A DNA stretch of 64,000 nt, taken from Phycisphaeraceae bacterium. Its GTDB lineage: Bacteria > Planctomycetota > Phycisphaerae > Phycisphaerales > Phycisphaeraceae. The stretch spans positions 20,109 through 84,108 of the forward strand of contig NYZC01000403.1 of NCBI GenBank assembly GCA_002686995.1, in the 5' to 3' direction. Shown piece after piece: positions 7,262-21,212 of the stretch (position 1 is the stretch's first letter; every line of letters starts with the position of its first letter). A program made the position numbers and the translations under genes. Below the pieces are notes generated by a model. The model saw only the letters and a list, made by a program, of their open reading frames with translations, ran no database searches and was not told the origin of the DNA.

Positions 7262-7597
7262 ATGACGTTTCTGACTGCCATCATGGTCGGCGTGATCTTC
7301 GCCTCGGCCACGTTCCTGATGCTCGGCCGTGAGCTGAAGGGCGTGTGCATGGGCGTGTTCCTGCTCGGGCACGGCGCCAACCTGGCGATCATCTCGTCGA
7401 GCACGTCGCCGCTGGGCAGGATCGCGCCCGTGCTCGGAGACGGCATCGACCTCGGCCAGTACGCCGATCCGCTGCCCCAGGCGCTGATCCTCACCGCGAT
7501 CGTCATCGGCTTCGCCGTGCAGGCATTCCTGCTGACCCTGCTGGTGCTGACCTGGCGCCGGGCCCAGACCCTCGAGCTGTCCGAACTGTCCTCATGA
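7262..7597 (+). CDS. mrpC: Na+/H+ antiporter subunit C (MrpC/MnhC, NuoK-like)
   Basis: 111-aa protein with three TM helices, of NuoK/MnhC type, at the expected operon position. Confidence 0.9.
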   Translation: MTFLTAIMVGVIFASATFLMLGRELKGVCMGVFLLGHGANLAIISSSTSPLGRIAPVLGDGIDLGQYADPLPQALILTAIVIGFAVQAFLLTLLVLTWRRAQTLELSELSS

Positions 7598-9243
7598 ACC
7601 CACACCTGATCATCCTGTTCGTGCTTGTTCCGATGACGGCCGGCGTCGTGACGCTGCTGCTGCACCGCCACAAGCCGGCGCAGCGGGTCATCGGACTGTT
7701 CTTCCTGCTGTTCAACGTGATCACGTCGCTGTCGGCGCTGTACCACGTCTACGCCGGCGCCGACCGCGCCGGGCGGATCCTCGTCTCGCAGATGGGCAAC
7801 TGGCCCGCGCCGTTCGGCATCACGATCGCCGTCGATCCGCTCGCGGCGATCATGCTGGCGGTGTGCTCGATCGTGTGCCTGGCCGTGTTCATCTACTGCG
7901 TGAGTCAACTCAAGGACAACATCGCCGGTGGATACTTCCACCCGCTGTATCACCTTCTGATCTTCGGCGTCCAGTGGAGCTTCATCACCGGCGACCTATT
8001 CAACCTGTTCGTCGCGTTCGAGATCATGCTCATGGCGTCGTACGCGATGTTCTGCCTGGGCACGACGCGCGACCAGATGCGCCAGGCGTACAAGTACGTG
8101 CTGCTCAACCTGGTGGGTTCCACCCTGTTCGTGACCTGCGCCGGCATGCTGTACGGCCAGCTCGGCACGCTGAACATGGCCGACATGGCCCGCATCGCCC
8201 TGCAGGGACAGCTGCCCACGGCGGCCGTGCCGGTGGTCGCGATGCTGCTGGTCGTGTTCGGCTTGAAGACCGCGATCTTCCCGATCTGGTTCTGGCTGCC
8301 CGACTCCTACTACACGATGCCGGCGGCCATCGGCGGCCTGTTCGCGGGCCTGCTGACCAAGGTCGGCGCCTACGTGATGATCCGGGTCTTCGTGATGATG
8401 TTCGGCACGGCCGAGGCCGTCACGCAGGTCGTGGCGCCCGTGATCCTGGTCTCGGCGGCGGTGACGATGTTCTTCGGCGTGCTCGGCGCGGTCTCGATGC
8501 ACACGGTGCGCCGCATCCTGTCGATCCACATCATCAGCCAGGTGGGGTACATGATCTTCGGCGTCGGCCTGGCGATCGGCGCCGGGCTGAGCGAAGAGGT
8601 CCGGATGATGGCGGCGGCCGGAGCCATCTTCTTCATCATCCACAACATGGCCGTCAAGTGCTGCCTGTTCCTCTGCGGCGGCCTGATGGTGGAGCACGCG
8701 GGCAGCGACGACCTCGAGAAGATCGGCGGCCTGCTGCCGCGGGCCCCGTGGCTCGCAGCACTGTTCCTGGTCGCGGCGCTTTCGCTCGCGGGCCTTCCGC
8801 CGCTCTCGGGCTTCTTCGGCAAGTGGGTGCTCATCAAGGAAGGCTGGACGGCGGGTCACTACGTGATCACGGGATTCGCGATCGCCACGAGCCTGCTCAC
8901 GCTGCTGTCGATGCTCAAGATCTGGAGCTACGGATTCTGGAACCCGCCGCGCGGCCACCACGTCGATCGGCCGCACGACACGCCGCGGACCTCCGGCGGC
9001 ATCGTCGCCATCGCGATGCTCGTCTTCGTCGCCCTGTCGATGGGGTTCGGGGCCCAGGCGTGGTTCGACGTCTGCCGGGGCGCCGCCCGCTCGCTCATCG
9101 ACCCGAAACCCTACATCACCGCCGTCCTCGGACCGCGCGTCCTCGATGACTACGGTCTGCACCAGCGGATCGCGGCCCGCGATCTGCATGAGGCGCATCG
9201 CGAGGTGCATCACGCGGCGCATCACGAGGAGGTGACGCGATGA
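7594..9243 (+). CDS. mrpD: Na+/H+ antiporter subunit D (MrpD/MnhD, NuoN/M-like)
   Basis: ATG at 7594 overlaps the mrpC stop (ATGA). Proton-pumping NuoM/N-type polytopic sequence (FNLFVAFEIMLMASY, WLPDSYYTMPAAIGGLFAGLLTKVG). Confidence 0.9.
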   Translation: MNPHLIILFVLVPMTAGVVTLLLHRHKPAQRVIGLFFLLFNVITSLSALYHVYAGADRAGRILVSQMGNWPAPFGITIAVDPLAAIMLAVCSIVCLAVFIYCVSQLKDNIAGGYFHPLYHLLIFGVQWSFITGDLFNLFVAFEIMLMASYAMFCLGTTRDQMRQAYKYVLLNLVGSTLFVTCAGMLYGQLGTLNMADMARIALQGQLPTAAVPVVAMLLVVFGLKTAIFPIWFWLPDSYYTMPAAIGGLFAGLLTKVGAYVMIRVFVMMFGTAEAVTQVVAPVILVSAAVTMFFGVLGAVSMHTVRRILSIHIISQVGYMIFGVGLAIGAGLSEEVRMMAAAGAIFFIIHNMAVKCCLFLCGGLMVEHAGSDDLEKIGGLLPRAPWLAALFLVAALSLAGLPPLSGFFGKWVLIKEGWTAGHYVITGFAIATSLLTLLSMLKIWSYGFWNPPRGHHVDRPHDTPRTSGGIVAIAMLVFVALSMGFGAQAWFDVCRGAARSLIDPKPYITAVLGPRVLDDYGLHQRIAARDLHEAHREVHHAAHHEEVTR

Positions 9244-9725
9244 GAGTGCGGCTTCTGCTGCTGAACATCCTGCTCGCGGTGCTGTGGATGTTCATGTGGA
9301 ACGCGATCGACATCTTCACGCTCCTGTTCGGGTTCGCGCTCGGATACCTCCTGCTCGGCGTCATCAGCCGGGTCACGGTGCAGGACAAGGACGGATACGG
9401 CGTCAAGGGCTGGCGGCTGTTCTCGTTCGCGTTCTACTTCATGAGGATCCTGGTGATCGCCAACCTCCAGGTCGCCCGCGAGATCGTGACGCCGGGCTTC
9501 GGCATGTCGCCGGGCATCCTCCGCTACGATGTCTCGGGCATGACCGAGCTGCAGATCACCAGCCTTGCGAACGCGATCACGCTGACGCCGGGCACCCTGT
9601 CGGTCGACGTTTCCGACGAGGGCGATGCGCTCTTCGTGCACTGCATGTACGCCAGTGACCGCGACGCCACGATTCGCGAGCTGGACGAGCTGCGCGACCG
9701 GCTCATGAAGGAGGTCTTCGGATGA
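9240..9725 (+). CDS. mrpE: Na+/H+ antiporter subunit E (MrpE/MnhE)
   Basis: 161 aa with MnhE-like features (LLLNILLAVLWMFMW..., ANAITLTPGTLSVDV). Its start overlaps the mrpD stop by 4 nt. Confidence 0.85.
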   Translation: MRVRLLLLNILLAVLWMFMWNAIDIFTLLFGFALGYLLLGVISRVTVQDKDGYGVKGWRLFSFAFYFMRILVIANLQVAREIVTPGFGMSPGILRYDVSGMTELQITSLANAITLTPGTLSVDVSDEGDALFVHCMYASDRDATIRELDELRDRLMKEVFG

Positions 9726-10102
9726 CCGTTTCCCTCGCGCTCGGCGCGGCGTCCGCCGCCGCCGGGACGGCTCCGACGTGGAGCGGACAGCTCGTCGCCT
9801 GGACCGTGCACATCGGAATCATCGTGATCGCCATCGCGATGTTCCTCTGCATCCTGCGCCTGATCATCGGGCCTCATCTCGCCGACCGCGCGTTGGCAGT
9901 CGACACGCTGGGCGTCATGCTGATCGGGCTCGTCGTCCTGCTGACGATGCAGCTCAAGACCCTGATGTTCTTCGACGGCATCCTGGTGCTGTCGCTGCTC
10001 GGTTTCGCCGGCACCGTGGCCATGGCCCAGTACATCGGGCGGCCGCACCGAAAGCCGCAGACGCGCGGCGAGGTCAGCGGAACCACGGACGGACACGGAT
10101 GA
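9722..10102 (+). CDS. mrpF: Na+/H+ antiporter subunit F (MrpF/MnhF)
   Basis: Small three-TM protein with IIGPHLADRALAVDTLGVMLIGLVVLL, an MnhF hallmark. Overlaps the mrpE stop. Confidence 0.8.
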   Translation: MTVSLALGAASAAAGTAPTWSGQLVAWTVHIGIIVIAIAMFLCILRLIIGPHLADRALAVDTLGVMLIGLVVLLTMQLKTLMFFDGILVLSLLGFAGTVAMAQYIGRPHRKPQTRGEVSGTTDGHG

Positions 10103-10151
10103 ACGCGGATGGCCCGGCTCGCCGCCGGTCCACCGGATCCGGAAACACGAC

Positions 10152-10514
10152 ATGACCATCAATCTCACGACGATCAACGACCTCGCCACCGTGCTCTTCC
10201 TCGTGTCCGGACTCTTCTTCATGCTCGTGGCGACGGTCGGCCTCTGGCGCCTGCCGGACTTCTACCACCGGATGCACGCCGCGACGAAGGGGGTCACTCT
10301 CGGCATCGTCGGCATGCTCGTCGCCGCCCTGCTCTACGTCCCGCATCACATGGAGGCGACCTTCATCGCCGTCTTCACGAAGGTCGTCCTCGCGATCATG
10401 TTCCAGTTCATCGCCAACCCGGTCGGCGCCCACCTGCTTTCCAAGGCCGCGCACCTTGACGGCTGCCCGAAGTGGGATCAGACCGTGTTCGATGATCTCG
10501 AGAAGTCGCGATAG
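10152..10514 (+). CDS. mrpG: Na+/H+ antiporter subunit G (MrpG/MnhG)
   Basis: VATVGLWRLPDFYHRMHAATKGVTLG is the conserved MnhG N-terminal signature. Last gene of the operon. Confidence 0.85.
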   Translation: MTINLTTINDLATVLFLVSGLFFMLVATVGLWRLPDFYHRMHAATKGVTLGIVGMLVAALLYVPHHMEATFIAVFTKVVLAIMFQFIANPVGAHLLSKAAHLDGCPKWDQTVFDDLEKSR

Positions 10515-10544
10515 TCAGATCAGGTCAAGCTCAATCTTCCCGTC

Positions 10545-11126
10545 TCACCTGCGCGATGATCTGTATCGCGCACAATACCGGTCGGAGCGCGCCACCGGAC
10601 GACGGTCCTCCAGGTCCACGTCGTTGAAGCTCTTGCGATCGCCCCACGAGAAGATGCGCTCGAAGAGGGGGAACCATCGGGCGTCGCGGACGAGATCGAG
10701 AAAGTGCACCTCGTGCTCCTTCTCACGGATGCCCATCTCGTAGAGCATCTCGTCGTGCTCGGTGATGTCCAGCTCGTGAAAGTACCGGATCATCACGAAG
10801 TACTCGCAGACGTTGCCGCTCTCGAGCCGGCCCGCGAAGAAGTAAGGCATGAATCGCCCGATGAGGTGGCAACTGAGACCGAGCAGCTTTCCGATGACGT
10901 GGTACTTGATCTCGTACCAGCGCGAAACCTCGATGTCGTGGCGGCGCATGATCTCCAGAACGTTGCGGCGGTGGTCCCACTCGTCCTGCTCGATGCGCTG
11001 CACCGCCGCCTTCTCCCGGGGATCCTTCAATGATGCCGCGTGCCCGATGTAAGCGAAGGACGCCGCCTTTTCGGCGGAATACGCCTTGCGAAGCGAATCG
11101 ACCAGTCTGGGGTGATCCAGGCTCAT
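10545..11126 (-). CDS. Ferritin-like di-iron carboxylate protein (COQ7/rubrerythrin-like four-helix bundle)
   Basis: Two ExxH-containing helices (EQDEWDH, REKEHEVH) plus upstream Glu-containing helices (AEKAASFAY, ESGNVCEY). Transcribed divergently from queD and the NRPS. Confidence 0.6.
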   Translation of the reverse strand: MSLDHPRLVDSLRKAYSAEKAASFAYIGHAASLKDPREKAAVQRIEQDEWDHRRNVLEIMRRHDIEVSRWYEIKYHVIGKLLGLSCHLIGRFMPYFFAGRLESGNVCEYFVMIRYFHELDITEHDEMLYEMGIREKEHEVHFLDLVRDARWFPLFERIFSWGDRKSFNDVDLEDRRPVARSDRYCARYRSSRR

Positions 11127-11445
11127 GAGATCTCTGGTCCGACCTGATCCTGCTCGGCACGGATTTCGCGGAGCCTTTTAGATCGGGTACGCGCTGCCGA
11201 GCCGGGCCGTTCGCGGCCGGGTTCGAATCAAGTTCGCGGCTCACGCACTCGATAGGGTCAGGGGGACGCGCTCCCGATCGACGATCAAGCCGGTGCCGTT
11301 CCACCTGACCTGTTAAATCGGCACGACCCTCGTCATCGTTCGGATCGCCATCAAGGTCCCTTGGTCCTGCCAGGAGACGACGCGGAGGCAATCGAGGCGC
11401 CTCACGTGACGCTTGAGACGAGATTCCCGGAACGTGGAACAGGAC

Positions 11446-11808
11446 ATGGAAATCTACAAGGAGTTCACCTTCGAGGCCGCTCACCGCCTGCCGAACGTCC
11501 CGCCAGGTCACAAGTGCGGGCGTCTGCACGGGCATTCGTTCAAGGCGATCGTCCATGTCAGCGGCCCGATCGGCGACGATTCCGGCTGGGTCATGGATTT
11601 CGCCGACATCAAGCGGCTCTTCGAACCGATCCGGGATCAGCTGGACCATCACTATCTGAACGAGATCGAGGGATTGGAGAACCCCACCAGCGAGATCATC
11701 GCCCGCTGGATCTGGCAGCGCCTGCGCGCCGATCTGGCCAACCTCTCCAGCGTCGTCGTCAACGAGACATGCACGTCCGGCTGCATCTACCGGGGCGAGG
11801 ACGACTGA
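11446..11808 (+). CDS. queD: 6-carboxy-5,6,7,8-tetrahydropterin synthase / 6-pyruvoyl-tetrahydropterin synthase family (QueD-like)
   Basis: MEIYKEFTFEAAHRLPNVPPGHKCGRLHGHSF...VMDFADIK...LDHHYLN matches the PTPS/QueD zinc and catalytic signature (AAH, C-x3-HGH). The stop lies 4 nt before the NRPS start. Confidence 0.85.
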   Translation: MEIYKEFTFEAAHRLPNVPPGHKCGRLHGHSFKAIVHVSGPIGDDSGWVMDFADIKRLFEPIRDQLDHHYLNEIEGLENPTSEIIARWIWQRLRADLANLSSVVVNETCTSGCIYRGEDD

Positions 11809-11812
11809 GCCG

Positions 11813-14800
11813 ATGGTGCACGGCGAACGATACACACCGCCTCCCGATATCGCGTGCGTTCATCAGTGTTTCGAGCAACGGGCGGCGGAAGCGCCGGACG
11901 CGATCGCGATCGTCTTCAACGACACGTCGTTGAGCTACCGCGAACTGAACGAGCGAGCCAACCGGCTGGCTCACCATCTTCAGCATCTTGGCGTAGGACC
12001 CGACGTGCTTGTCGGATCGTGCCTGCCCCGTTCGTGCGAGCTGATCGTCTGCATCCTGGGCATTCTGAAGGCTGGAGGTACGTACGTGCCCCTGGATCCT
12101 GCATATCCCCACGCGCGTCTTGCGTCGATGCTGGAGGACGCGCGGCCTCCCGTTCTGGTCACGACAAGCGATCTGCGTGACCAGCTTCCCGGGACGGGCG
12201 CGACGGTGGTGTCCCTCGATACTGACTGGTCCGCGATCAGCGGTCAGCCTCCTGACACGCCGGACTGCCGCGCGACGGGTGACGACCTGATGTACGTGAT
12301 CTTCACCTCGGGATCCACGGGGCCGCCGAAGGGCGTGATGGTCACGCATCGGAACGTGGTTCACCTCTATCGGGGCCTGCCCCCGTCCCTCTGCTTCGAC
12401 GCCACCGACATCTGGACCATGTTCCATTCCTGCGCCTTCGGGTTCTCGGTGTGGGAGATCTGGGGGGCGCTGATTCACGGGGGCCGCCTCATCGTTCTGC
12501 CGACGGAAAGCTGCCTGTCGCCGTCAGCCCTGCTTGACGAGCTCTGCCGCCGGCGCGTGACGGTCCTCAGCCAGACGCCGTCCGCGTTCCGCCAGCTTCT
12601 GCTGCCGGAAGTGCCGACGGAAACCGCCGACAGGCTGTGCCTCCGCATGATCGTGTTCAGCGGCGAGCCGGTCGTATCGGGGGATCTCAGGCGATGGTTC
12701 GACCGCGCGCGGGGACGCGCGGTGCAACTGATCGATACCTACGCGATCACCGAGGCGGGCGGGCAGATTGCGTGCCGGCTCATCGAACCTTCCGATATCG
12801 ACGATTCAGGTACCCTCGACATCGGAGACATCCTGTCCGGCACGACCGTGCACATTCTGGATGAGCAGCTGAGGCCCGTTCCGACGGGCTCGACCGGCGA
12901 GCTGCACGTGGCCGGCCCCGGACTGGCTCGTGGCTACCTCAATCGACCGGCGCTCACGCGCGACCGGTTCCCCGACGACCCGTTCAGCAGGACAGATGGA
13001 GGTCGCCTGTACCGAACCGGCGATCGCGCACGAATCCTGCCCGACGGAAGAATTGCCCTGATCGGGCGCGTCGATGACCAGGTCAAGATTCGCGGTTATC
13101 GGGTGGAGCCCGGCGAGATCGAAGCCGCGTTGAGCGATCACGACGCCGTGCACGAATCCGCGGTCGTATGCCGCCGCGATGCCTCCGGTGACAATCGGCT
13201 GTTCGGCTACGTCGTGCCGATTCCCGAATACGCAGACGCACCGAAGAAGCAATCGACCGCGAACGCGGACGATCACGACCGCATCGAACTCTGGCCGTCG
13301 CTGGGCGAGCACCAGCTCTACGACGAGGTTCTTTACGACCTGATGGCCGCGGATCCGGTTCGTCTCGACCAGTACCGGAAGGCCATCGATCAACATGTAC
13401 GAGACAGGGTCGTGGTCGACATCGGCACCGGGCAGGACGCGCTGCTCGCACGATTCTGCGTCGAGGCCGGGGCGAGAAAGGTCTACGCGATCGAGATCAT
13501 CGACGAGGCCTTTCGAAGAGCCAGGTCGCTCGTCGAGTCGCTCGGCCTGGCAGACCGGATCGATGTCATCCACGGCGACGCCACGCGCCTGCAGTTGCCC
13601 GAACCTGCCGAAGTCTGCGTCCACGGACTGTTCGGCAACATCGGCAGCGCCGACGGCATCGTGCCGATCATGAACGACGCACGGCGGTTTCTGAAGCCGG
13701 AAGCCGTGACCATTCCGCCTCGCTGCATCACCAGGATCGCTCCCGTCCAGATCCCTCCAGACCTGAAAACGCAGCCGTCGTTCCGCGGGCTCGCCCGTAC
13801 CTACGTCAAACGGGTCTTTCAGCATGTCGGCCGGAGATCCGATCTCCGCCTCTGCGTCAGGAACTTCCCACGGGATCACCTGATCGCGAACGCAGGCACG
13901 TTCGAAGAGCTGGACTTCTCGGATTTCATCGCTCCGGAGCGGACCGGTCGGAGCGAGTTCGCGGTGACCGACGATGCGCGACTTGACGCGTTCCTGCTCT
14001 GGGTGCAGGTGCACATCACGGATGACGCGCCCATCGACTACCTCGAGCACTCGCACGGCTGGTTGCCCGTCATCTTTCCGATCTCCGACACCGGCATCAG
14101 TGTCTCGCGAGGCGACCGGATCAGCGCGACGTGGACGTGCACCGTCTCCGCGAACGGACGCAACCCCGATTACGCCATCTGCGGCCAGGTCGTTCGATCA
14201 CGCGCCCGTGACGTCGCCTTCGCATACGCGTCACCGCACCGTGTGCGTGCATACCGAAGCACCGCGATTCATCGACTGCTGTTCGACGACCTGGATCGGG
14301 CGGACCTGTCGGTCACGAGCCTTCAGTCGCACCTGCGGCGCACACTGCCGGATTACATGATCCCGTCCGACATCATGGTCGTCGACGAAATGCCGCGCAC
14401 GCCGAGTGGCAAGCTCGATCGATCCGCTCTTCCGTCGCCCGACAGCGCGACCCGGGTTCCCTCCACGCCCTTCGTCGATCCCGCGACACCGCTTCAGCGA
14501 AGGATCGCCGCCATCTGGGAGAGCGTCCTGGACCGCGACGCGGTGGGCATCGATCAGGAATTCCTGGAAGCGGGCGGCCACTCACTCGCCGCGGCTCAGA
14601 TACTCGCGCGACTGCGCGTCAAGGAAGGTGTCGAACTACCGCCGTCGGCGGTCTTCGATCACCCCACGGTTCGGCAGCTGTCCGCCCTGATATCAGGTTG
14701 CCGGCGGATTCCGAAGTCGCAGCACGTCGCCGATCCGCACGTCGAGACAACGCCCGGATCGGCGGACGACAGGAAGTTCATGCTGCTCGCGATCGAGCAG

Positions 14801-17800
14801 GCGTCCCGGGCACTCGACAAGGACGGCGTACCCTTCGGCGCCTGCATCACGCGAGCAGGATCGGTCGTGACGACGGTCCACAACAGCGTGCTGTTCGACG
14901 GTGATCCCACCGCTCACGCCGAAGTCTGTGCGATACGCCGCGCCTGCCGTGCGCTCGGCTCCCTGGACCTCGCCGATTGCGTGATGTACACGACGTGCGA
15001 GCCCTGTCCGATGTGCTATGCCGCATGCCACGAAGCGCACATCTCGCGGATCGTGTACGGCATTGGCCACGACGATGCAAACGCATTCGGCACCCCCAGC
15101 CTCGCCATCGGTGCCGCAAAGATGGGCGAGTTGGGACACGCCTCGATCGAGCTGACTCCGGACGTGCTGCGCGAGCAGGTCCTGGCGCTGTTCGAGCGAT
15201 GGTCGCTGCGCCGCGCCGAGACCGTCGCCGCCCGATCGCCGAAATCATCGCCGCATGCGACGCACACGGCGCCCCGGCAATCATTCGAGCGCATCGATCG
15301 TGCGAACGTCGATCACGTGCCGCTTTCGTATTCCCAGCAGCGCCTGTGGTTTCTCGATCGGATCGAAGACGATCTGACCGCCTACAACCATGCCGAAGCC
15401 TTCAGGATCGTGGGTGACCTGAAGGTGGAGGCCCTGCGCCGGTCGTTCGAGGCGGTCATTCATCGCCATGAGTCCCTGCGAACGAACTTTCGCGTGCACG
15501 AAGGGGAGGCGTTCCAGGTCATCCGGACGCCGGCGCCGTTCGACCTGCCCGTCGTCGACCTCCGGGAAGGCGCCACCCATCCGCAAGACGAGGAAATCTC
15601 CAGGCGCCGCGACCAGGAAGCGATGCGGACCTTCGATCTCACGCGCGATCTCATGCTGCGCGCGTCATTGCTTCGTCTGCGCCGTCATGAGCACATCCTG
15701 CTGCTGACCAATCACCATGCTGCAGCCGATGGCTGGTCGGAGCACGTGCTGTGGCGGGACGTTTCCGCCTTCTACGCAGCGCACGCGCGGAACGGGACCG
15801 CGAACCTGCCGGAGCTGACGATTCAGTACGCGGACTTTGCGGTCTGCCAGCGGAACGCACTCGAAGAAAGTCGACGCGACGATCTGCTGCGCTACTGGCG
15901 CAAGCAGCTCGAGGGGATCCCGGCGCTCGAGCTGCCCACCGATTCGCCTCGTCCTTCCGTCCTCACGCATTGCGGCGCACGGCACGACTTCGAATTGAAC
16001 GAAACACTCAGGGAGCGGCTGCAGTCGCTGGGTCAGTCGGAGGGGCTCACGCTTCACATGATGCTGCTTGCCGGGTTCAAGATCCTGCTGTCGCGCTACA
16101 GCCACCAGCTCGACGTGGCCGTAGGCACGCCGGTGGCAGCCCGGAGCGACCAGGTGCTGGAAGACCTCGTCGGGGTCTTCATCAACGTGGTCGTGCTCCG
16201 CACGGATCTCTCGGGGGACCCGACCGTCCGAGAGATCCTGCGACGCATCCGGGACGTGTCGCTGGCAGCGTACGACCATCAGGACCTGCCCTTCGAGAAG
16301 CTGGTCGAAGAGCTTCAACCGGAAAGACAGCTCAATCGCGACCCACTGATCCAGACGCTGTTCCAGCTGACGAACTTCCCGGAGCTCGACCCCGCGCTGG
16401 ACGGCGTCGATGTCTCGCGACTGACACCGCGCCACCACCCGGTACGGTTCGATCTGGATATGCACATCCGCCAGGGGCCTGGGGGATTCCGGGGCGCCGT
16501 AAGCTACAGCACGGACCTGTTCAATCCGGCGACGATCGAGCGCATGGTCGGACATTTCCTGACGCTGCTGGAATCCATCGTCACGAACCCGAACCAGAGA
16601 CTCGGCGCGTTGAGACTGCTCCCGGATGCGGAACGCCACCAGCAACTGGTGACGTGGAACCACATGACGACGGAGACGACGACGGACACCCCTCGCAACA
16701 AGTGCGTCCACGAGCTTTTCGAGGAGCAGGTTGAGCGGTCACCGGACGCGATCGCGCTGGTCTTCGGCGATCGGCAGCTGACGTATCGCGCATTGAACGA
16801 TCGGGCCGATCTGCTCGCGTCCCGCCTGCGAAACCAGGGCGTCGGGCCGGAGACGCTGGTGGGCCTCCATCTCGAGCGCTCACCGGAGCTGATCATCGGC
16901 GTCCTCGGAATCCTGAAGGCGGGCGGTGCGTACGTCCCACTCGACGTGGACGATCCGCCGTCACGAATCGAGGCCCTGCTTGGTGATGCGAAGATCGACA
17001 TCCTCGTCACGCAGGATCCTTCGCCGGGCGCCATGCCCGCCGGCTGCCGGGTCGTCCGCGCTGATGAGGACGACTCGCTCCTTCAGAACCTGCCTGGATC
17101 GAATTCGCCCGTCGATGTCGGAGAGGACAACCTTGCGTACGTCATGTTCACTTCAGGAACCACCGGGCGGCCGAAGGGTGTTGAAATCCGACATCGCTCG
17201 ATTGCCCGTCTCGTATTCGGTACCGATTACGCGAAATTCGGCCCGGATCGCGTTTTCGTGCACCTTGCTCCGATCTCGTTCGACGCTTCCACGTTCGAGC
17301 TGTGGGGCGCGCTGCTCCATGGCGCGAAGCTGGTCATCACGCCGCCCGGCGTTCCGGATCTCCGGCAACTGGAAAAGCTGCTCAAGCGCCATCGCGTGAC
17401 GACGCTCTGGCTCACCGCGACGCTGCTGAACCAGATCGTGGAGCATCGACCGCAGGTGCTGGGAGGCATCGACGAGGTGCTTACGGGCGGCGAGCCGCTT
17501 TCCGTGACGCACGTTCGGGCGGCGCAGTCCGCACTGGGGCCGCGACCGCGTTTCACGAACGCCTACGGGCCGACGGAATGCACGACGTTCGCGACCTGCT
17601 ACCGGTTGCCGCGGCGCCTGGCTCCGGATGTCGAATCAGTGCCGATCGGTCGTCCAATCGCGAATACGCAGGTCTTCGTTCTGGACGATCAGCGGCAGCC
17701 GGTTCCGATCGGCGTCAGGGGCGAGCTGTACATCGGCGGGTCGGGCCTGGCCCGAGGTTACCTGGACCAACCGGCGCTGACCGCCGCCAGGTTCGTGCCG

Positions 17801-19441
17801 AATCCGTTCGGCGGGGATCCCGATGCCAGGATGTATCGGACCGGCGACCTGGTTCGCTGGCGGGCGGACGGTGAGATCGAGTTCCTGGGCCGCGTGGACG
17901 ACCAAGTCAAGCTTCGCGGGTTTCGCATCGAACCCGGCGAGATCGAGTACGTCCTCACCGGGCATCCGGATGTCGCCCGGAGTGTCGTCACCGCAAGGGA
18001 AGATCGACCCGGCGAGAAGCGACTCGTGGCATACTTCGTGCCCGCGCGCGATGTGCAACCGAATGACGCGGATCTGGCCCGCCACGTGCGGAGACGGCTC
18101 CCGCGCTACATGGTGCCCACGGCGTTCGTGCGTCTCGACGCGCTGCCGCAACTTCCAGGCGGCAAGGTCGATCGACGCGCATTGCCGCCGCCGATTGCAC
18201 GTCGCTCGGAATGCGATCCCGAATCCGTCGCTCCACGCACGCCCACCGAGAAGCAGCTGGCGGCCATCTGGTGCGATCTGCTCGGCCTCGATCGCGTGGG
18301 CGCCGACGACCGCTTCTTCGAGCTCGGAGGCCATTCACTCATGGCCGTGCCGCTGTTCGATCGGATCGAGAAGATATTCGGCCGGAGCCTGCCGCTGGCC
18401 ACGTTGTACGAGCGTGACACGATCGGTCACCTCGCGACACTCCTTGACGAGCAGCCGGGTTCGGCCTCGACCGTCGCGTCGGCCATACCCCTGCGGGAAG
18501 GCGGCCAGGGTCGTCGCCTGTTTCTGTTTCCGTCGATCGGCGGTGAGCTGATGTACTTTCGCCACGTGCTCGAGAAGCTGGACCGACGTTTTCCGGTCAC
18601 GGGCATTCAACCCGACCCGACGCCCGAGAACGTGGAAGCGTTCCGGGACATTCCCACAACCGCGCATGCCTTCGTCGAGGCGGTGCAAGCGTGTCAGTCA
18701 TCCGGCCCCTACGCCCTGGCCGGCTTCTCTTATGGCGGGCTGATGGCCTACGAGGTGGCCTGCATGCTCGAGGGAACGGGGGAAGAGGTCGATCTGCTGG
18801 CCGTCATCGACACGGGGCCCGGTCCGGCGAATTCCGAATCGCGATCCACCCGGCCGGCGGTGCGCCTCGCATGGATCGCGATGAACCTTCCCTTCTGGCT
18901 GCGTGACGAGATTCGGCACGTCTCGGCACCACGATGGATCGAGCGCGTCCGTCGGACGATTCCTCGATGGTACCGCCACGTGGCATCGCACGGGCGAGCG
19001 CCGATCGAGTTTGATCACTTCATGGACATCAACCGCATCCCCTCGCGCCATCGGGAGCTGACGCGCACGGCCTTCGCCGCGTTTCGTGATTTCGCCCCCC
19101 GCCCCTATGCGGGCCGGCTGGTGCTCCTCCGCGCGAAGACCCAACCGCTTCTGAGCGACTGGCCGCGCGACCTTGGCTGGGGCCGTGTTGCCGGCGACGT
19201 GGAAATACGTCAGATCGACGGGAACCACGAGAGCATCGTGCATGGATCGCACGCCGGCGCATTGGCCGGCGAACTCGGCGCGCTGCTCGATGATCTTGAC
19301 CCGGCGGCGCCGCAGCCGTCGCTGACGCCGAATCCACCCCCAAGCGAAACCGTAAATGCCCCGAACGCGCGCAGCGCCTCGGCCGTTGGGCCCATGGGTG
19401 CAGCGCCGAAAATCGACCGCTACTTAAAGAAGAGAACGTAG
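11813..19441 (+). CDS. Two-module non-ribosomal peptide synthetase: A(interrupted by MT)-PCP-[CDA-fold deaminase]-C-A-PCP-TE
   Basis: 2,542 aa. A-domain core motifs occur twice (FTSGSTGPPKG / FTSGTTGRPKG, YRTGD, GRVDDQVKIRG). There are two GGHSL carrier motifs, the C-domain HHAAADGWS motif, and the TE motif GFSYGG. Confidence 0.95.
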   Translation: MVHGERYTPPPDIACVHQCFEQRAAEAPDAIAIVFNDTSLSYRELNERANRLAHHLQHLGVGPDVLVGSCLPRSCELIVCILGILKAGGTYVPLDPAYPHARLASMLEDARPPVLVTTSDLRDQLPGTGATVVSLDTDWSAISGQPPDTPDCRATGDDLMYVIFTSGSTGPPKGVMVTHRNVVHLYRGLPPSLCFDATDIWTMFHSCAFGFSVWEIWGALIHGGRLIVLPTESCLSPSALLDELCRRRVTVLSQTPSAFRQLLLPEVPTETADRLCLRMIVFSGEPVVSGDLRRWFDRARGRAVQLIDTYAITEAGGQIACRLIEPSDIDDSGTLDIGDILSGTTVHILDEQLRPVPTGSTGELHVAGPGLARGYLNRPALTRDRFPDDPFSRTDGGRLYRTGDRARILPDGRIALIGRVDDQVKIRGYRVEPGEIEAALSDHDAVHESAVVCRRDASGDNRLFGYVVPIPEYADAPKKQSTANADDHDRIELWPSLGEHQLYDEVLYDLMAADPVRLDQYRKAIDQHVRDRVVVDIGTGQDALLARFCVEAGARKVYAIEIIDEAFRRARSLVESLGLADRIDVIHGDATRLQLPEPAEVCVHGLFGNIGSADGIVPIMNDARRFLKPEAVTIPPRCITRIAPVQIPPDLKTQPSFRGLARTYVKRVFQHVGRRSDLRLCVRNFPRDHLIANAGTFEELDFSDFIAPERTGRSEFAVTDDARLDAFLLWVQVHITDDAPIDYLEHSHGWLPVIFPISDTGISVSRGDRISATWTCTVSANGRNPDYAICGQVVRSRARDVAFAYASPHRVRAYRSTAIHRLLFDDLDRADLSVTSLQSHLRRTLPDYMIPSDIMVVDEMPRTPSGKLDRSALPSPDSATRVPSTPFVDPATPLQRRIAAIWESVLDRDAVGIDQEFLEAGGHSLAAAQILARLRVKEGVELPPSAVFDHPTVRQLSALISGCRRIPKSQHVADPHVETTPGSADDRKFMLLAIEQASRALDKDGVPFGACITRAGSVVTTVHNSVLFDGDPTAHAEVCAIRRACRALGSLDLADCVMYTTCEPCPMCYAACHEAHISRIVYGIGHDDANAFGTPSLAIGAAKMGELGHASIELTPDVLREQVLALFERWSLRRAETVAARSPKSSPHATHTAPRQSFERIDRANVDHVPLSYSQQRLWFLDRIEDDLTAYNHAEAFRIVGDLKVEALRRSFEAVIHRHESLRTNFRVHEGEAFQVIRTPAPFDLPVVDLREGATHPQDEEISRRRDQEAMRTFDLTRDLMLRASLLRLRRHEHILLLTNHHAAADGWSEHVLWRDVSAFYAAHARNGTANLPELTIQYADFAVCQRNALEESRRDDLLRYWRKQLEGIPALELPTDSPRPSVLTHCGARHDFELNETLRERLQSLGQSEGLTLHMMLLAGFKILLSRYSHQLDVAVGTPVAARSDQVLEDLVGVFINVVVLRTDLSGDPTVREILRRIRDVSLAAYDHQDLPFEKLVEELQPERQLNRDPLIQTLFQLTNFPELDPALDGVDVSRLTPRHHPVRFDLDMHIRQGPGGFRGAVSYSTDLFNPATIERMVGHFLTLLESIVTNPNQRLGALRLLPDAERHQQLVTWNHMTTETTTDTPRNKCVHELFEEQVERSPDAIALVFGDRQLTYRALNDRADLLASRLRNQGVGPETLVGLHLERSPELIIGVLGILKAGGAYVPLDVDDPPSRIEALLGDAKIDILVTQDPSPGAMPAGCRVVRADEDDSLLQNLPGSNSPVDVGEDNLAYVMFTSGTTGRPKGVEIRHRSIARLVFGTDYAKFGPDRVFVHLAPISFDASTFELWGALLHGAKLVITPPGVPDLRQLEKLLKRHRVTTLWLTATLLNQIVEHRPQVLGGIDEVLTGGEPLSVTHVRAAQSALGPRPRFTNAYGPTECTTFATCYRLPRRLAPDVESVPIGRPIANTQVFVLDDQRQPVPIGVRGELYIGGSGLARGYLDQPALTAARFVPNPFGGDPDARMYRTGDLVRWRADGEIEFLGRVDDQVKLRGFRIEPGEIEYVLTGHPDVARSVVTAREDRPGEKRLVAYFVPARDVQPNDADLARHVRRRLPRYMVPTAFVRLDALPQLPGGKVDRRALPPPIARRSECDPESVAPRTPTEKQLAAIWCDLLGLDRVGADDRFFELGGHSLMAVPLFDRIEKIFGRSLPLATLYERDTIGHLATLLDEQPGSASTVASAIPLREGGQGRRLFLFPSIGGELMYFRHVLEKLDRRFPVTGIQPDPTPENVEAFRDIPTTAHAFVEAVQACQSSGPYALAGFSYGGLMAYEVACMLEGTGEEVDLLAVIDTGPGPANSESRSTRPAVRLAWIAMNLPFWLRDEIRHVSAPRWIERVRRTIPRWYRHVASHGRAPIEFDHFMDINRIPSRHRELTRTAFAAFRDFAPRPYAGRLVLLRAKTQPLLSDWPRDLGWGRVAGDVEIRQIDGNHESIVHGSHAGALAGELGALLDDLDPAAPQPSLTPNPPPSETVNAPNARSASAVGPMGAAPKIDRYLKKRT
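11860..13220 (+). other. NRPS domain: adenylation domain 1, N-terminal part (motifs A1-A8)
   Basis: LSYRELNERANRLA, FTSGSTGPPKG, YRTGD, GRVDDQVKIRGYRVEPGEIE. The A4 region reads AFGFSVWEIW, so Gly replaces the usual Asp235. Confidence 0.8.
13220..14310 (+). other. NRPS domain: SAM-dependent methyltransferase inserted between A8 and A9 of A1
   Basis: About 360 aa lie between RLFGYVVP and LPDYMIP (A9). It contains the Rossmann motif I VVVDIGTGQDALLARF followed by KVYAIE...VIHGD. The layout resembles protein-arginine-methyltransferase-type class I MTs; this comparison is from memory. Confidence 0.6.
14483..14698 (+). other. NRPS domain: peptidyl carrier protein 1
   Basis: LQRRIAAIWESVL...FLEAGGHSLAAAQI, which includes the phosphopantetheinyl Ser motif. 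Confidence 0.8.
14767..15215 (+). other. NRPS-embedded cytidine/guanine-deaminase-fold (CDA) zinc deaminase domain
   Basis: FMLLAIEQA...PFGACI...DPTAHAEVCAIRRAC...CVMYTTCEPCPMCYAAC carries the H-A-E ... P-C-x-x-C zinc signature. It is closest in look to guanine deaminase (GuaD) or TadA-type enzymes. Confidence 0.8.
15318..16640 (+). other. NRPS domain: condensation domain
   Basis: PLSYSQQRLWFL (C1) and HHAAADGWS (C3, HHxxxDG). Confidence 0.8.
16713..18190 (+). other. NRPS domain: adenylation domain 2 (alpha-amino-acid type, Asp235 present)
   Basis: LTYRALNDRADLLA, FTSGTTGRPKG, SFDASTFELWGAL, NAYGPTE, YRTGD, GRVDDQVKLRGFRIEPGEIE, PGGKVDRRAL. Confidence 0.85.
18240..18455 (+). other. NRPS domain: peptidyl carrier protein 2
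   Basis: EKQLAAIWCDLLG...FFELGGHSLMAV. Confidence 0.8.
18508..19295 (+). other. NRPS domain: type I thioesterase
   Basis: LFLFPSIGGE ... ALAGFSYGGLMAYE (GxSxG), an alpha/beta-hydrolase layout at the C-terminus. Confidence 0.75.

Positions 19442-19865: not shown

Positions 19866-19869
<4 letters not shown>
19420..19869 (-). CDS. Small zinc-ribbon membrane protein (149 aa)
   Basis: MMSQPCPHCGTRVFADADGTCPHCG (a CxxC...CxxC ribbon) followed by three predicted TM helices. Its ATGATG start overlaps the TGA stop of the upstream ribB-type gene (ATGATGA). The rest of track ORF 19420..20508 is an artefactual extension. Confidence 0.6.

Positions 19870-21212
<1,343 letters not shown>

What the first reader, a model, noticed from the sequence alone, without database searches (positions are those of the whole stretch)
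12434..12463. Starter adenylation domain lacks Asp235 (A4 motif reads AFGFSVWEIW) and has an atypical A5 motif
In amino-acid-activating A domains the FDxS Asp salt-bridges the substrate alpha-amino group, and A2 of this same protein keeps it (SFDASTFELW). A1 has Gly-Phe at these positions. Its A5 motif reads DTYAITEAGG instead of NxYGPTE. Loss of Asp235 is an established indicator of aryl, keto, hydroxy or other non-alpha-amino acid substrates.
Basis: partly seen in the sequence, partly recalled or inferred. Interest (0 to 1): 0.6.

Follow-up and report, generated by a model that had tools for sequence, protein, structure and literature searches.

The report
Pterin-loading starter domain of a peptide synthetase
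The first loading domain of this bacterial peptide synthetase really lacks the residue that grips amino acids, and it belongs to a small family always found beside pterin-making and pterin-editing enzymes, so it most likely starts the peptide with a vitamin-like pteridine acid, chemistry so far shown only in fungi.

Summary
Observation confirmed. Window 12434-12463 (+) encodes AFGFSVWEIW in a 2542-aa NRPS (11813-19441). Its Gly210 aligns with Asp235 of solved A domains. The A5 motif reads DTYAITEAGG.

The change is not a one-off. Twenty-two foreign loci carry the same Gly235 / xYA[ILV]TE signature. On a tree, 21 of these A domains (window included) form one clade (SH-aLRT 100) inside the Thr-type FDFSVWE/NMYGITETTVH clade.

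Nineteen of the 22 clade loci carry a guanine-deaminase-type CDA and/or a QueD/PTPS gene, fused or adjacent. None of 136 other fetched NRPS loci does.

In the window, a true QueD (E 4e-51 to E. coli QueD) ends 4 nt before the NRPS. The NRPS reads A(PRMT-like MT insert)-T-CDA-C-A-T-TE.

Best reading (about 0.7): A1 loads a QueD-derived pteridine-6-carboxylic acid. The CDA and MT convert it to a methyl-lumazine cap, which is joined to one hydrophobic amino acid.

This parallels fungal penilumamide, but with an unrelated A-domain lineage, a QueD supply route and an in-line deaminase domain. I found no paper describing either.

The scan had noted the same cassette on other DNA (e1-3961359, e1-4060255) and on this window (e1-3878572).

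No substrate has been tested biochemically.

The parts
11413..11808 (+). queD: 6-carboxy-5,6,7,8-tetrahydropterin synthase, ends 4 nt before the NRPS start
   Evidence: Pfam PTPS E 1e-38. NCBIfam QueD equivalog 109.6 bits against a cut-off of 89.25. E 4e-51 to E. coli QueD 4NTM, with HKCGRLHGHS, DHHYLN and ETCT kept.
11813..19441 (+). NRPS gene, 2542 aa: A1(MT insert)-T-CDA-C-A2-T-TE
   Evidence: ORF listing and translation; Pfam domain table.
11864..13222 (+). A1 core, motifs A1-A8 (aa 18-470). A3 SGSTGPPKG at 12308-12334; A7 YRTGD at 13010-13024.
   Evidence: Pfam AMP-binding; 14-471 aligned to the LgrA A domains; motif positions.
12434..12463 (+). A4 motif AFGFSVWEIW; Gly210 (12440-12442) sits in place of Asp235
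12734..12763 (+). A5 motif DTYAITEAGG (Ala for the Gly324 position, Gly-Gln at positions 330-331)
13286..14317 (+). PRMT-like SAM methyltransferase inserted between A8 and A9 (aa about 492-835)
   Evidence: Pfam Methyltransf_25 534-629. Best PDB matches are PRMT6 and CARM1, E about 1e-14. 54% identical to the insert in L004.
14345..14422 (+). A9-A10 of A1 (LPDYMIPS ... SGKLDR; Lys867 corresponds to Lys517)
14501..14692 (+). Carrier domain T1 (GGHS, Ser924 at 14582-14584)
   Evidence: Pfam PP-binding 897-960.
14765..15202 (+). In-line CDA-fold deaminase domain (HAE at 14915, CEPCPMC at 14996)
   Evidence: Pfam dCMP_cyt_deam_1 E 1e-24. Closest solved structures are Arabidopsis guanosine deaminase (E 1e-30) and B. 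subtilis guanine deaminase (E 1.5e-25).
15311..16645 (+). Condensation domain (HHAAADGWS at 15713-15739)
   Evidence: Pfam Condensation E 4e-102.
16718..18175 (+). A2, a canonical amino-acid A domain (SFDASTFELW, NAYGPTE). Hand-read code is DAFWLGATFK, Val-like.
   Evidence: The code-to-substrate reading comes from memory of published codes.
18239..18433 (+). Carrier domain T2 (GGHS at 18326)
   Evidence: Pfam reports two PP-binding stretches.
18512..19276 (+). Thioesterase domain (GFSYGG at 18722-18739)
   Evidence: Pfam Thioesterase 2234-2488.
10545..11126 (-). Weak COQ7/ferritin-like di-iron protein, divergent from queD; membership in the pathway is uncertain
   Evidence: Pfam COQ7 E 1e-5; PDB COQ7 E 0.002; not found in the other clade loci.

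Best explanation
A1 is a working starter adenylation domain of a distinct Gly235 clade that evolved from Thr-type A domains. It activates a pteridine-6-carboxylic acid, not an alpha-amino acid. The adjacent QueD makes 6-carboxy-tetrahydropterin from dihydroneopterin triphosphate. A1 loads this acid, or its oxidised or deaminated form, onto T1. The guanine-deaminase-type CDA domain turns the 2-amino-4-oxo pterin ring into a 2,4-dioxo lumazine ring. The PRMT-like methyltransferase inside A1 N-methylates it. The C domain joins the cap to one branched hydrophobic residue loaded by A2, and the TE releases an N-(methyl-lumazine-6-carbonyl) amino acid. Shown here: the missing Asp, the clade, the gene linkage and the identity of the partner enzymes. 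Inferred: the substrate, the order of the steps and the product.
For: (1) Gly aligns with Asp235 in two solved A domains. The catalytic motifs A3, A7, A8 and A10-Lys, and the T1 serine, are intact.

(2) Twenty-two foreign loci share F-G-[FY]-S and xYA[ILV]TE..G[QER]. On the tree, 21 such A domains (window included) form one clade with SH-aLRT 100, nested in the FDFSVWE/NMYGITETTVH clade.

(3) The hand-mapped pocket code is GFWSVSTGQK against DFWNIGMVHK in the nearest Asp-bearing relatives. The residues are smaller and more polar.

(4) CDA and/or PTPS lie in 19 of 22 clade loci and in 0 of 136 other fetched loci, Fisher p about 1e-21; related loci are not independent.

(5) The same parts occur fused or separate: PTPS-CDA-MT-A(MT)-T operons, A-T-CDA, A-T-CDA-MT and A(MT)-T-CDA. 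Parts that are fused in some genomes and separate in others usually work together.

(6) The window's PTPS is a true QueD. In L210, GTP cyclohydrolase I sits between the PTPS and the A gene.

(7) The CDA domain is closest to guanosine and guanine deaminases, which act on the same 2-amino-4-oxopyrimidine ring that pterins carry.

(8) Fungal precedent: the PlmA A domain activates pterin-6-carboxylic acid, and a deaminase plus two methyltransferases give 1,3-dimethyllumazine. Terrelumamides carry 1-methyllumazine-6-carboxylate.
Against: - There is no biochemical test of any clade member.
- The fungal pterin A domain keeps Asp at the first code position (DVMVLLMITK), so loss of Asp is not required for pterin loading.
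- Neither type of GTP cyclohydrolase I was found in the window's own assembly, which is 87.6% complete.
- The window's QueD is the best QueD match in that genome, so it may also serve queuosine synthesis.
- Three clade loci show no CDA or PTPS: L085, L199, and L101, which is only 1.9 kb.
- The PRMT-like insert also occurs in Asp-bearing A domains, so it is not pterin-specific.
- McyG shows that a non-Asp residue at 235 can coexist with amino-acid activation.
Confidence: 0.7

Rival explanations
1. A1 loads 7-carboxy-7-deazaguanine (CDG), the next queuosine intermediate made from the QueD product by QueE. The guanine-deaminase-like domain then gives a 7-deazaxanthine cap.
For: CDG is a carboxylic acid with a guanine-like ring that would suit a guanine-deaminase-type CDA. 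QueD is the dedicated neighbour. QueC is present in the genome, so the queuosine path probably runs.
Against: No QueE appears in the flanks. In 120 upstream ORFs of 19 clade loci, 4 of the 5 radical-SAM hits carry the CofH_C domain of FO synthase. A dedicated QueD without a dedicated QueE is less economical. L210 carries GCH I, PTPS and an acyl-CoA-dehydrogenase-like gene, but no QueE was seen among the upstream ORFs scanned.
Confidence: 0.08
2. A1 loads an alpha-keto or alpha-hydroxy acid, as in depsipeptide synthetases. The QueD and CDA linkage serves another purpose.
For: Gly or an aliphatic residue at position 235 is typical of alpha-hydroxy and alpha-keto acid A domains (EnSynA1 Gly, StsA Ile).
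Against: There is no ketoreductase domain, and the following domain is a normal HHxxxDG condensation domain. This reading does not explain why CDA or PTPS lies beside 19 of 22 clade loci and none of 136 others. The pocket is polar (S, S, T, Q), not aliphatic.
Confidence: 0.06
3. A1 still activates an amino acid (Thr/Ser-like or a cyclic one) despite Gly235. The pterin enzymes modify something else or supply a cofactor.
For: The clade is nested in a Thr-type clade. McyG activates Phe with Val at this position.
Against: Seven of the nine variable code positions differ from the Thr code, including the position of Gly324. From memory of the PheA structure, the backbone of Gly324 contacts the alpha-amino group. 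CDA is fused directly behind T1 in at least eight loci, which places the deaminase at the loaded starter.
Confidence: 0.06
4. A1 is a decayed, inactive domain, and the protein works as a single-module enzyme.
For: The A4 and A5 core motifs deviate from consensus.
Against: A3, A7, A8, the A10 Lys and the T1 serine are intact. The deviant motifs are themselves conserved across 22 loci down to 38% identity and across at least four phyla. That pattern is the mark of selection.
Confidence: 0.03

Closest known systems
Penilumamide (plm) pathway of Aspergillus flavipes: PlmA pterin-specific A domain, deaminase PlmD, methyltransferases PlmH and PlmI (PMC10549243 / bioRxiv 10.1101/2022.08.30.505926)
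   Same: An NRPS is primed with a pteridine-6-carboxylic acid derived from GTP. One deaminase and N-methyltransferases give a (di)methyl-lumazine cap. The cap is joined to amino acids.
   Different: - PlmA's code is DVMVLLMITK and keeps Asp; here it is GFWSVSTGQK, from a bacterial Thr-type lineage.
- The fungal carboxylate is proposed to arise through GCH I, an aldolase and oxidoreductases; here QueD gives it in one step.
- The fungal tailoring enzymes are separate proteins. Here the deaminase is an in-line domain after T1 and one MT is inserted in the A domain.
Pepteridine hybrid NRPS-like/pteridine cluster of Photorhabdus luminescens (PMC5384830)
   Same: A bacterial cluster that joins pteridine enzymes (GCH I, PTPS homologue) with NRPS-type T and C domains.
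   Different: It has no A domain. The tetrahydropterin is the acyl acceptor at N5, and the acyl group comes from a pyruvate-dehydrogenase-like E2-T-C. There is no deaminase and no carboxy-pterin starter.
Non-Asp235 A domains for alpha-hydroxy, alpha-keto and aryl acids (EnSynA1, StsA, DhbE/EntE; review PMC11253843)
   Same: The alpha-amino-binding Asp is replaced and the A5 motif is altered.
   Different: A1 is not related to the DhbE/EntE type: its best solved matches are LgrA, ObiF1 and McyB-type amino-acid A domains. It has no ketoreductase partner. Its pocket is polar and aromatic, and its conserved partners are pterin enzymes.
A domains interrupted by methyltransferases between A8 and A9 (for example the thiocoraline TioS/TioN type; named from memory)
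   Same: An MT of about 350 aa is inserted between A8 and A9, and the A10 Lys is kept.
   Different: The insert is PRMT-like: its best PDB hits are PRMT6 and CARM1, not the usual NRPS N-MT. The PRMT double-Glu loop is not kept; the window has His and Ala-Asp at those places.

Membership tests
NRPS adenylation domain (ANL superfamily) | Core motifs A3 (SGSTGxPKG), A7 (YRTGD), A8 (GRxDxQVKIRGxRIExGEIE) and A10 Lys517 | tested here: met
   All are present in A1. Pfam AMP-binding hit. E 2e-154 to the dimodular LgrA chain; about 276 bits for A1 against its first A domain.
Alpha-amino-acid-activating A domain | Asp235 in the FDxS (A4) motif and NxYGPTE (A5) | tested here: not met
   Gly210 aligns with the Asp. 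A5 reads DTYAITE.
Aryl-acid A domains (DhbE/EntE type) | Sequence kinship with DhbE/EntE and their A5 variant | tested here: not met
   The 60 best PDB matches listed are amino-acid-type A domains and related ANL ligases (DltA, beta-aminoacyl-ACP synthetases); no DhbE or EntE is among them. On the tree A1 sits inside the FDFSVWE clade.
Pterin-specific A domain as defined by fungal PlmA | Activates pterin-6-carboxylic acid in vitro | not testable with these tools
   Needs an ATP-PPi exchange or loading assay.
Pterin-specific A domain as defined by fungal PlmA | Specificity code DVMVLLMITK | tested here: not met
   The hand-mapped code is GFWSVSTGQK. The resemblance is functional and independently evolved; there is no sign of common descent.
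Lumazine-peptide gene set (pterin supply, deaminase, N-MT, NRPS) | Pteridine-forming enzyme, ring deaminase and methyltransferase linked to the NRPS | tested here: met
   The window has QueD, an in-line CDA and an MT insert. The same set is conserved in 19 of 22 related loci.
QueD (6-carboxytetrahydropterin synthase) | Score above the equivalog cut-off, and the Cys / His-x-His, Asp-His and Glu catalytic residues | tested here: met
   109.6 bits against a cut-off of 89.25. Aligned to E. coli QueD 4NTM at E 4e-51 with those motifs kept.
Guanine/guanosine-deaminase branch of the CDA fold | H-A-E and P-C-x-x-C zinc site; closest relatives are guanine or guanosine deaminases | tested here: met
   HAE is at aa 1035 and CEPCPMC at aa 1062. 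PDB matches: guanosine deaminase 7DQN at 1e-30 and guanine deaminase 1WKQ at 1.5e-25, ahead of TadA at 5e-21. Activity on pterin is untested.
Protein arginine methyltransferase (PRMT) | Double-Glu loop that binds the guanidinium group | tested here: not met
   In the alignment to PRMT6 the two Glu positions are His and Ala, followed by Asp. It has a PRMT-like fold but is not a PRMT.

The most novel reading that the evidence does not exclude
The starter module edits the pteridine while it hangs on the carrier. A1 loads the reduced QueD product 6-carboxy-tetrahydropterin, a cyclic N5-C6 'amino acid' whose nitrogen is not basic, which would explain the loss of Asp235. The ring is then oxidised while tethered to T1. 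The oxidant would differ between subclades: an acyl-CoA-dehydrogenase-like enzyme, a P450, an F420 system, or a di-iron protein. The in-line CDA domain then deaminates the ring and the PRMT-like insert methylates it. This would be the first CDA-fold deaminase acting as an NRPS tailoring domain, and the first recruitment of a queuosine enzyme into peptide assembly.
Probability: 0.35. Interest if true: 0.85.

Novelty: new variant of a known kind. Interest (0 to 1): 0.7.

Why it matters
Specificity predictors read A domains through the Asp235-anchored code and would return nothing useful for this domain. Defining a Gly235 clade with its own signature (F-G-[FY]-S, xYA[ILV]TE..G[QER], code GFWS[VA]S[TM]G[QER]K) and a fixed set of partner enzymes gives genome miners a rule for finding pteridine-capped peptides in bacteria. 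The clade occurs in Gammaproteobacteria, Chloroflexota, Sumerlaeota and a likely Planctomycetota host.

Lumazine peptides are so far fungal only, and penilumamides are reported as insulin sensitisers. An in-line deaminase domain and a PRMT-like insert would add two new tailoring domains to the NRPS toolbox.

The clade also shows how a Thr-type pocket was rebuilt for a polar bicyclic acid. One member sits in a cultured strain, Oceanospirillum sediminis D5 (L171), so the prediction can be tested directly.

Tried and rejected
- **Whole-module homologue search.** It was swamped by multi-module NRPSs and showed no second deaminase-bearing protein.
- **Representative search with the T-CDA piece.** It was also dominated by multi-carrier proteins and gave only one true relative, P0124. 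Rarity therefore cannot be claimed from it.
- **RibBA-like neighbour as pteridine supplier.** Rejected. It is convergent, is not conserved beside other clade loci, and tracks the host lineage (Phycisphaerae).
- **F420 genes as an obligatory part.** They flank about nine gammaproteobacterial loci but are absent from the window's locus, and no CofE was found in its assembly.
- **ACAD-like gene as a prolyl-carrier-type dehydrogenase.** It is closest to ordinary medium-chain acyl-CoA dehydrogenases at 1e-101, against 5e-62 for prolyl-ACP dehydrogenase 4IRN. Only synteny supports a role.
- **COQ7-like neighbour.** The similarity is weak and it is not conserved elsewhere.
- **Residue-level alignment to GrsA-PheA (1AMU).** It could not be printed because only the five best alignments are shown. 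LgrA, another solved A domain, was used instead.
- **Literature.** Searches for bacterial lumazine- or pterin-primed NRPSs and for deaminase domains in NRPSs found nothing. Subscription journals are not covered.
- **Technical failures.** Searches failed on a stop codon in L210 coordinates. One search timed out and was rerun.
Full report
**1. The observation.**
The window is GC-rich (0.60-0.70). ORF 11813-19441 (+) encodes a 2542-aa protein. Translating 12374-12523 places AFGFSVWEIW exactly on 12434-12463, and the Gly is residue 210.

Pfam gives the architecture:
- A1, aa 18 to about 470, resuming at A9/A10 near aa 845-870
- a methyltransferase hit at aa 534-629, inside A1
- PP-binding, aa 897-960
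- dCMP_cyt_deam_1, aa 985-1083
- Condensation, aa 1167-1611
- A2, aa 1636-2118
- a second PP-binding stretch
- Thioesterase, aa 2234-2488

HMMER alignments to both solved A domains of LgrA put the query's F-G-F-S opposite their F-D-G-S and F-D-I-S without gaps. No Asp lies within nine residues of the motif.

A5 reads DTYAITEAGG (12734-12763). A2 keeps SFDASTFELW and NAYGPTE. A3, A7, A8, the A10 Lys, both carrier serines, HHxxxDG and the GxSxG of the TE are all intact.

**2. It is a clade, not an accident.**
A search with the T-CDA piece found one full-length relative, P0124 (locus L004). Its order is A(MT)-T-CDA-MT-Cy-A..., with A4 GFGYSAWEIW and A5 DTYAITETGGQ, and it is 51% identical over the whole starter module.

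Two scans of genome contigs and one of metagenome contigs brought 158 distinct foreign loci. Twenty-two of them carry an A domain with F-G-[FY]-S.WE and [NDS]xYA[ILV][TS]E..G[QER].

In an IQ-TREE of 94 A cores, 21 such domains (the window's included) form one clade with SH-aLRT 100. That clade is nested in the FDFSVWE/NMYGITETTVH clade, also at 100, and the window's A1 is sister to L004's. Three other Gly235 domains lie elsewhere on the tree: Variovorax L075, L162 and L136. They have NLYGPTE at A5 and none of the partner genes.

I mapped the ten code positions by hand onto alignment A2:

| Source | Code |
|---|---|
| window, L005, L006 | GFWSVSTGQK |
| L004 | GYWSASTGQK |
| L017 | GFWSASMGEK |
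| nearest Asp-bearing relatives | DFWNIGMVHK |

Seven of the nine variable positions changed towards smaller or more polar residues. The A5 Gly is Ala throughout the clade. From memory of the PheA structure, the backbone of that Gly contacts the alpha-amino group.

**3. The partners.**
The gene that ends 4 nt before the NRPS is a true QueD. It scores above the NCBIfam equivalog cut-off and matches E. coli QueD 4NTM at E 4e-51 with the catalytic motifs kept.

The in-line CDA domain has HAE and PCxxC. It is closest to Arabidopsis guanosine deaminase (1e-30) and B. subtilis guanine deaminase (1.5e-25), ahead of TadA. These enzymes hydrolyse the 2-amino group of a 2-amino-4-oxopyrimidine ring, the same ring that pterins carry.

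The insert in A1 is PRMT-like (PRMT6 and CARM1, about 1e-14) but lacks the PRMT double-Glu loop.

**4. The linkage is conserved and reshuffled.**
tblastn with the window's PTPS, CDA and MT pieces found a CDA and/or PTPS in 19 of 22 clade loci and in none of 136 other loci. Fisher p is about 1e-21; related loci are not independent, so this is an upper bound on significance. The three exceptions are L101 (only 1.9 kb), L085 and L199.

The architectures differ:

| Layout | Loci |
|---|---|
| Operon: PTPS, stand-alone CDA, stand-alone MT, A(MT)-T, then C-A-T modules | L005, L006, L090, L108, L109, L145, L182, L189, L200 |
| The same operon without a PTPS hit | L114, L122, L209 |
| PTPS, then A-T-CDA | L017, L117; L123 is an A-CDA fragment |
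| A-T-CDA-MT-C-A | L171, L210 |
| A(MT)-T-CDA | window, L004, L179 |

Such fusion and fission of the same four parts argues that they act on one substrate.

In L210, GTP cyclohydrolase I lies between the PTPS and an acyl-CoA-dehydrogenase-like gene that directly precedes the A gene. That places the start of the path at GTP.

No QueE was found. In 120 upstream ORFs of 19 clade loci, four of the five radical-SAM hits carry the CofH_C domain of FO synthase.

**5. Mechanism proposed.**
1. GTP is converted to dihydroneopterin triphosphate by GCH I. This enzyme comes from primary metabolism in the window's host and was not found in its 87.6%-complete assembly.
2. QueD makes 6-carboxy-tetrahydropterin.
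3. A1 adenylates this acid, or its oxidised or deaminated form, and loads T1.
4. The CDA domain produces the lumazine ring.
5. The MT insert methylates a ring nitrogen.
6. The C domain condenses the cap with the A2 substrate. The code DAFWLGATFK is Val-like by memory of published codes.
7. The TE hydrolyses the product.

The redox state that A1 accepts, and whether CDA and MT act before or after loading, are open. Stand-alone CDA and MT genes in the operon type allow pre-loading tailoring. T-CDA fusions in at least eight loci favour on-carrier tailoring.

One pattern may bear on this but is confounded by phylogeny. All twelve loci with a stand-alone CDA have Gln or Arg at code position 331. 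Six of the nine fused loci have Glu there.

**6. Comparison with what is known.**
The closest system is fungal penilumamide. Its PlmA A domain activates pterin-6-carboxylic acid. A deaminase and two methyltransferases give 1,3-dimethyllumazine, and the timing of those steps is unresolved. Terrelumamides carry 1-methyllumazine-6-carboxylate.

The window's system works like this one but is not a member. The code differs and lacks Asp, the A lineage is a bacterial Thr-type one, the carboxylate comes from QueD, and the tailoring is built into the synthetase.

Bacterial pepteridines use pterin as an acyl acceptor without any A domain.

The review PMC11253843 supports the rule that Asp235 is replaced in hydroxy-, keto- and aryl-acid A domains. 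It also gives McyG as a caveat.

I found no paper on a bacterial pteridine-primed NRPS or on a CDA domain in an NRPS. Subscription journals are outside the library.

**7. Host and history.**
The RibBA-like neighbour is 60-70% identical to proteins of Phycisphaeraceae and Phycisphaerae MAGs, so the host is probably a planctomycete. None of 40 relatives has the T-CDA fusion. The NRPS has a lower GC3 (0.79) than its flanks, most of which are 0.84-0.93. The window's QueD is 64-73% identical to those of the gammaproteobacterial loci. Acquisition by horizontal transfer is likely.

**8. Earlier notes of this scan.**
I formed the pterin reading, before looking at earlier notes. Notes e1-3878572 (same window), e1-3961359 and e1-4060255 (other genomes) reach the same reading. 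This report adds:
- the definition of the clade, its signature and its tree
- the count of partner genes across 158 loci
- the set of fused and unfused forms
- the GCH I / ACAD locus (L210)
- a cultured carrier, Oceanospirillum sediminis D5

**9. Verdict.**
The substrate assignment is a strong inference (about 0.7) that awaits an adenylation assay.

Noticed in passing
L005:7001-9408; L090:4204-5813; L145:2215-3981; L109:1985-2944: A set of coenzyme F420 biosynthesis genes (CofD, CofE, CofC, FO-synthase radical-SAM genes, Fno-like reductase) lies divergently upstream of queD in many operon-type clade loci. Among 120 upstream ORFs, CofD appears in 9. The set is absent from the window's locus, and no CofE was found in its assembly. 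It could be a redox partner or inherited synteny.
   Followed up: partly
L210:5259-7326; L171:6346-7488; L199:892-2034: In one subclade an acyl-CoA-dehydrogenase-like gene directly precedes the Gly235 A gene. In L210 it follows PTPS and GTP cyclohydrolase I. It might aromatise a carrier-bound tetrahydropterin, as prolyl-carrier dehydrogenases do. By sequence, however, it is closest to ordinary medium-chain acyl-CoA dehydrogenases.
   Followed up: partly
L017:8320-9321; L117:835-2040: A cytochrome P450 gene lies just upstream of the PTPS in the two A-T-CDA loci. Downstream in L017 lie a hexapeptide acyltransferase and a PylC-like ATP-grasp gene where NRPS modules would be expected, which suggests a different way of attaching the cap.
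   Followed up: no
L075:13763-14242; L162:8001-8447; L136:1656-1964: A second, unrelated group of A domains also has Gly at position 235 (PFGFSVWE) but a normal NLYGPTE A5 and no PTPS or CDA neighbours. One is in Variovorax sp. OV700. Their substrate is unknown.
   Followed up: no
L171 (Oceanospirillum sediminis strain D5, NZ_JACJFM010000031.1), 7560-13679: A cultured isolate carries the clade as A(Gly235)-T-CDA-MT-C-A. It is a practical organism for testing the prediction.
   Followed up: partly
window 19866-21140 (-): This RibB/GTP-cyclohydrolase-II-like gene is the only GCH II homologue found in the assembly and scores below all NCBIfam RibBA cut-offs. Its nearest relatives are Phycisphaerae.
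   Followed up: partly
whole assembly G000: The assembly is 7.8 Mb in 446 contigs with 5.5% contamination, while same-family relatives are 2.4-5.2 Mb. The bin may be mixed, or the genome unusually large. Neither type of GTP cyclohydrolase I was detected.
   Followed up: no
L004:10261-12600: The same PRMT-like insert (43% identical) sits in a second A domain of the L004 assembly line, one outside the Gly235 clade. Inserts of this type also occur in Nostoc and other NRPSs (Pfam PRMT5 hits). What they methylate there is unknown.
   Followed up: no
window 10545-11126 (-): A weak COQ7/ferritin-like di-iron protein is transcribed divergently from queD. It is not conserved beside other clade loci.
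   Followed up: partly
L003:331-2205 (own genome, contig C23): A 271-aa protein with a C-terminal PTPS-family domain lies next to a pteridine-reductase-like SDR. It is a separate pterin-metabolism locus in the same genome.
   Followed up: no
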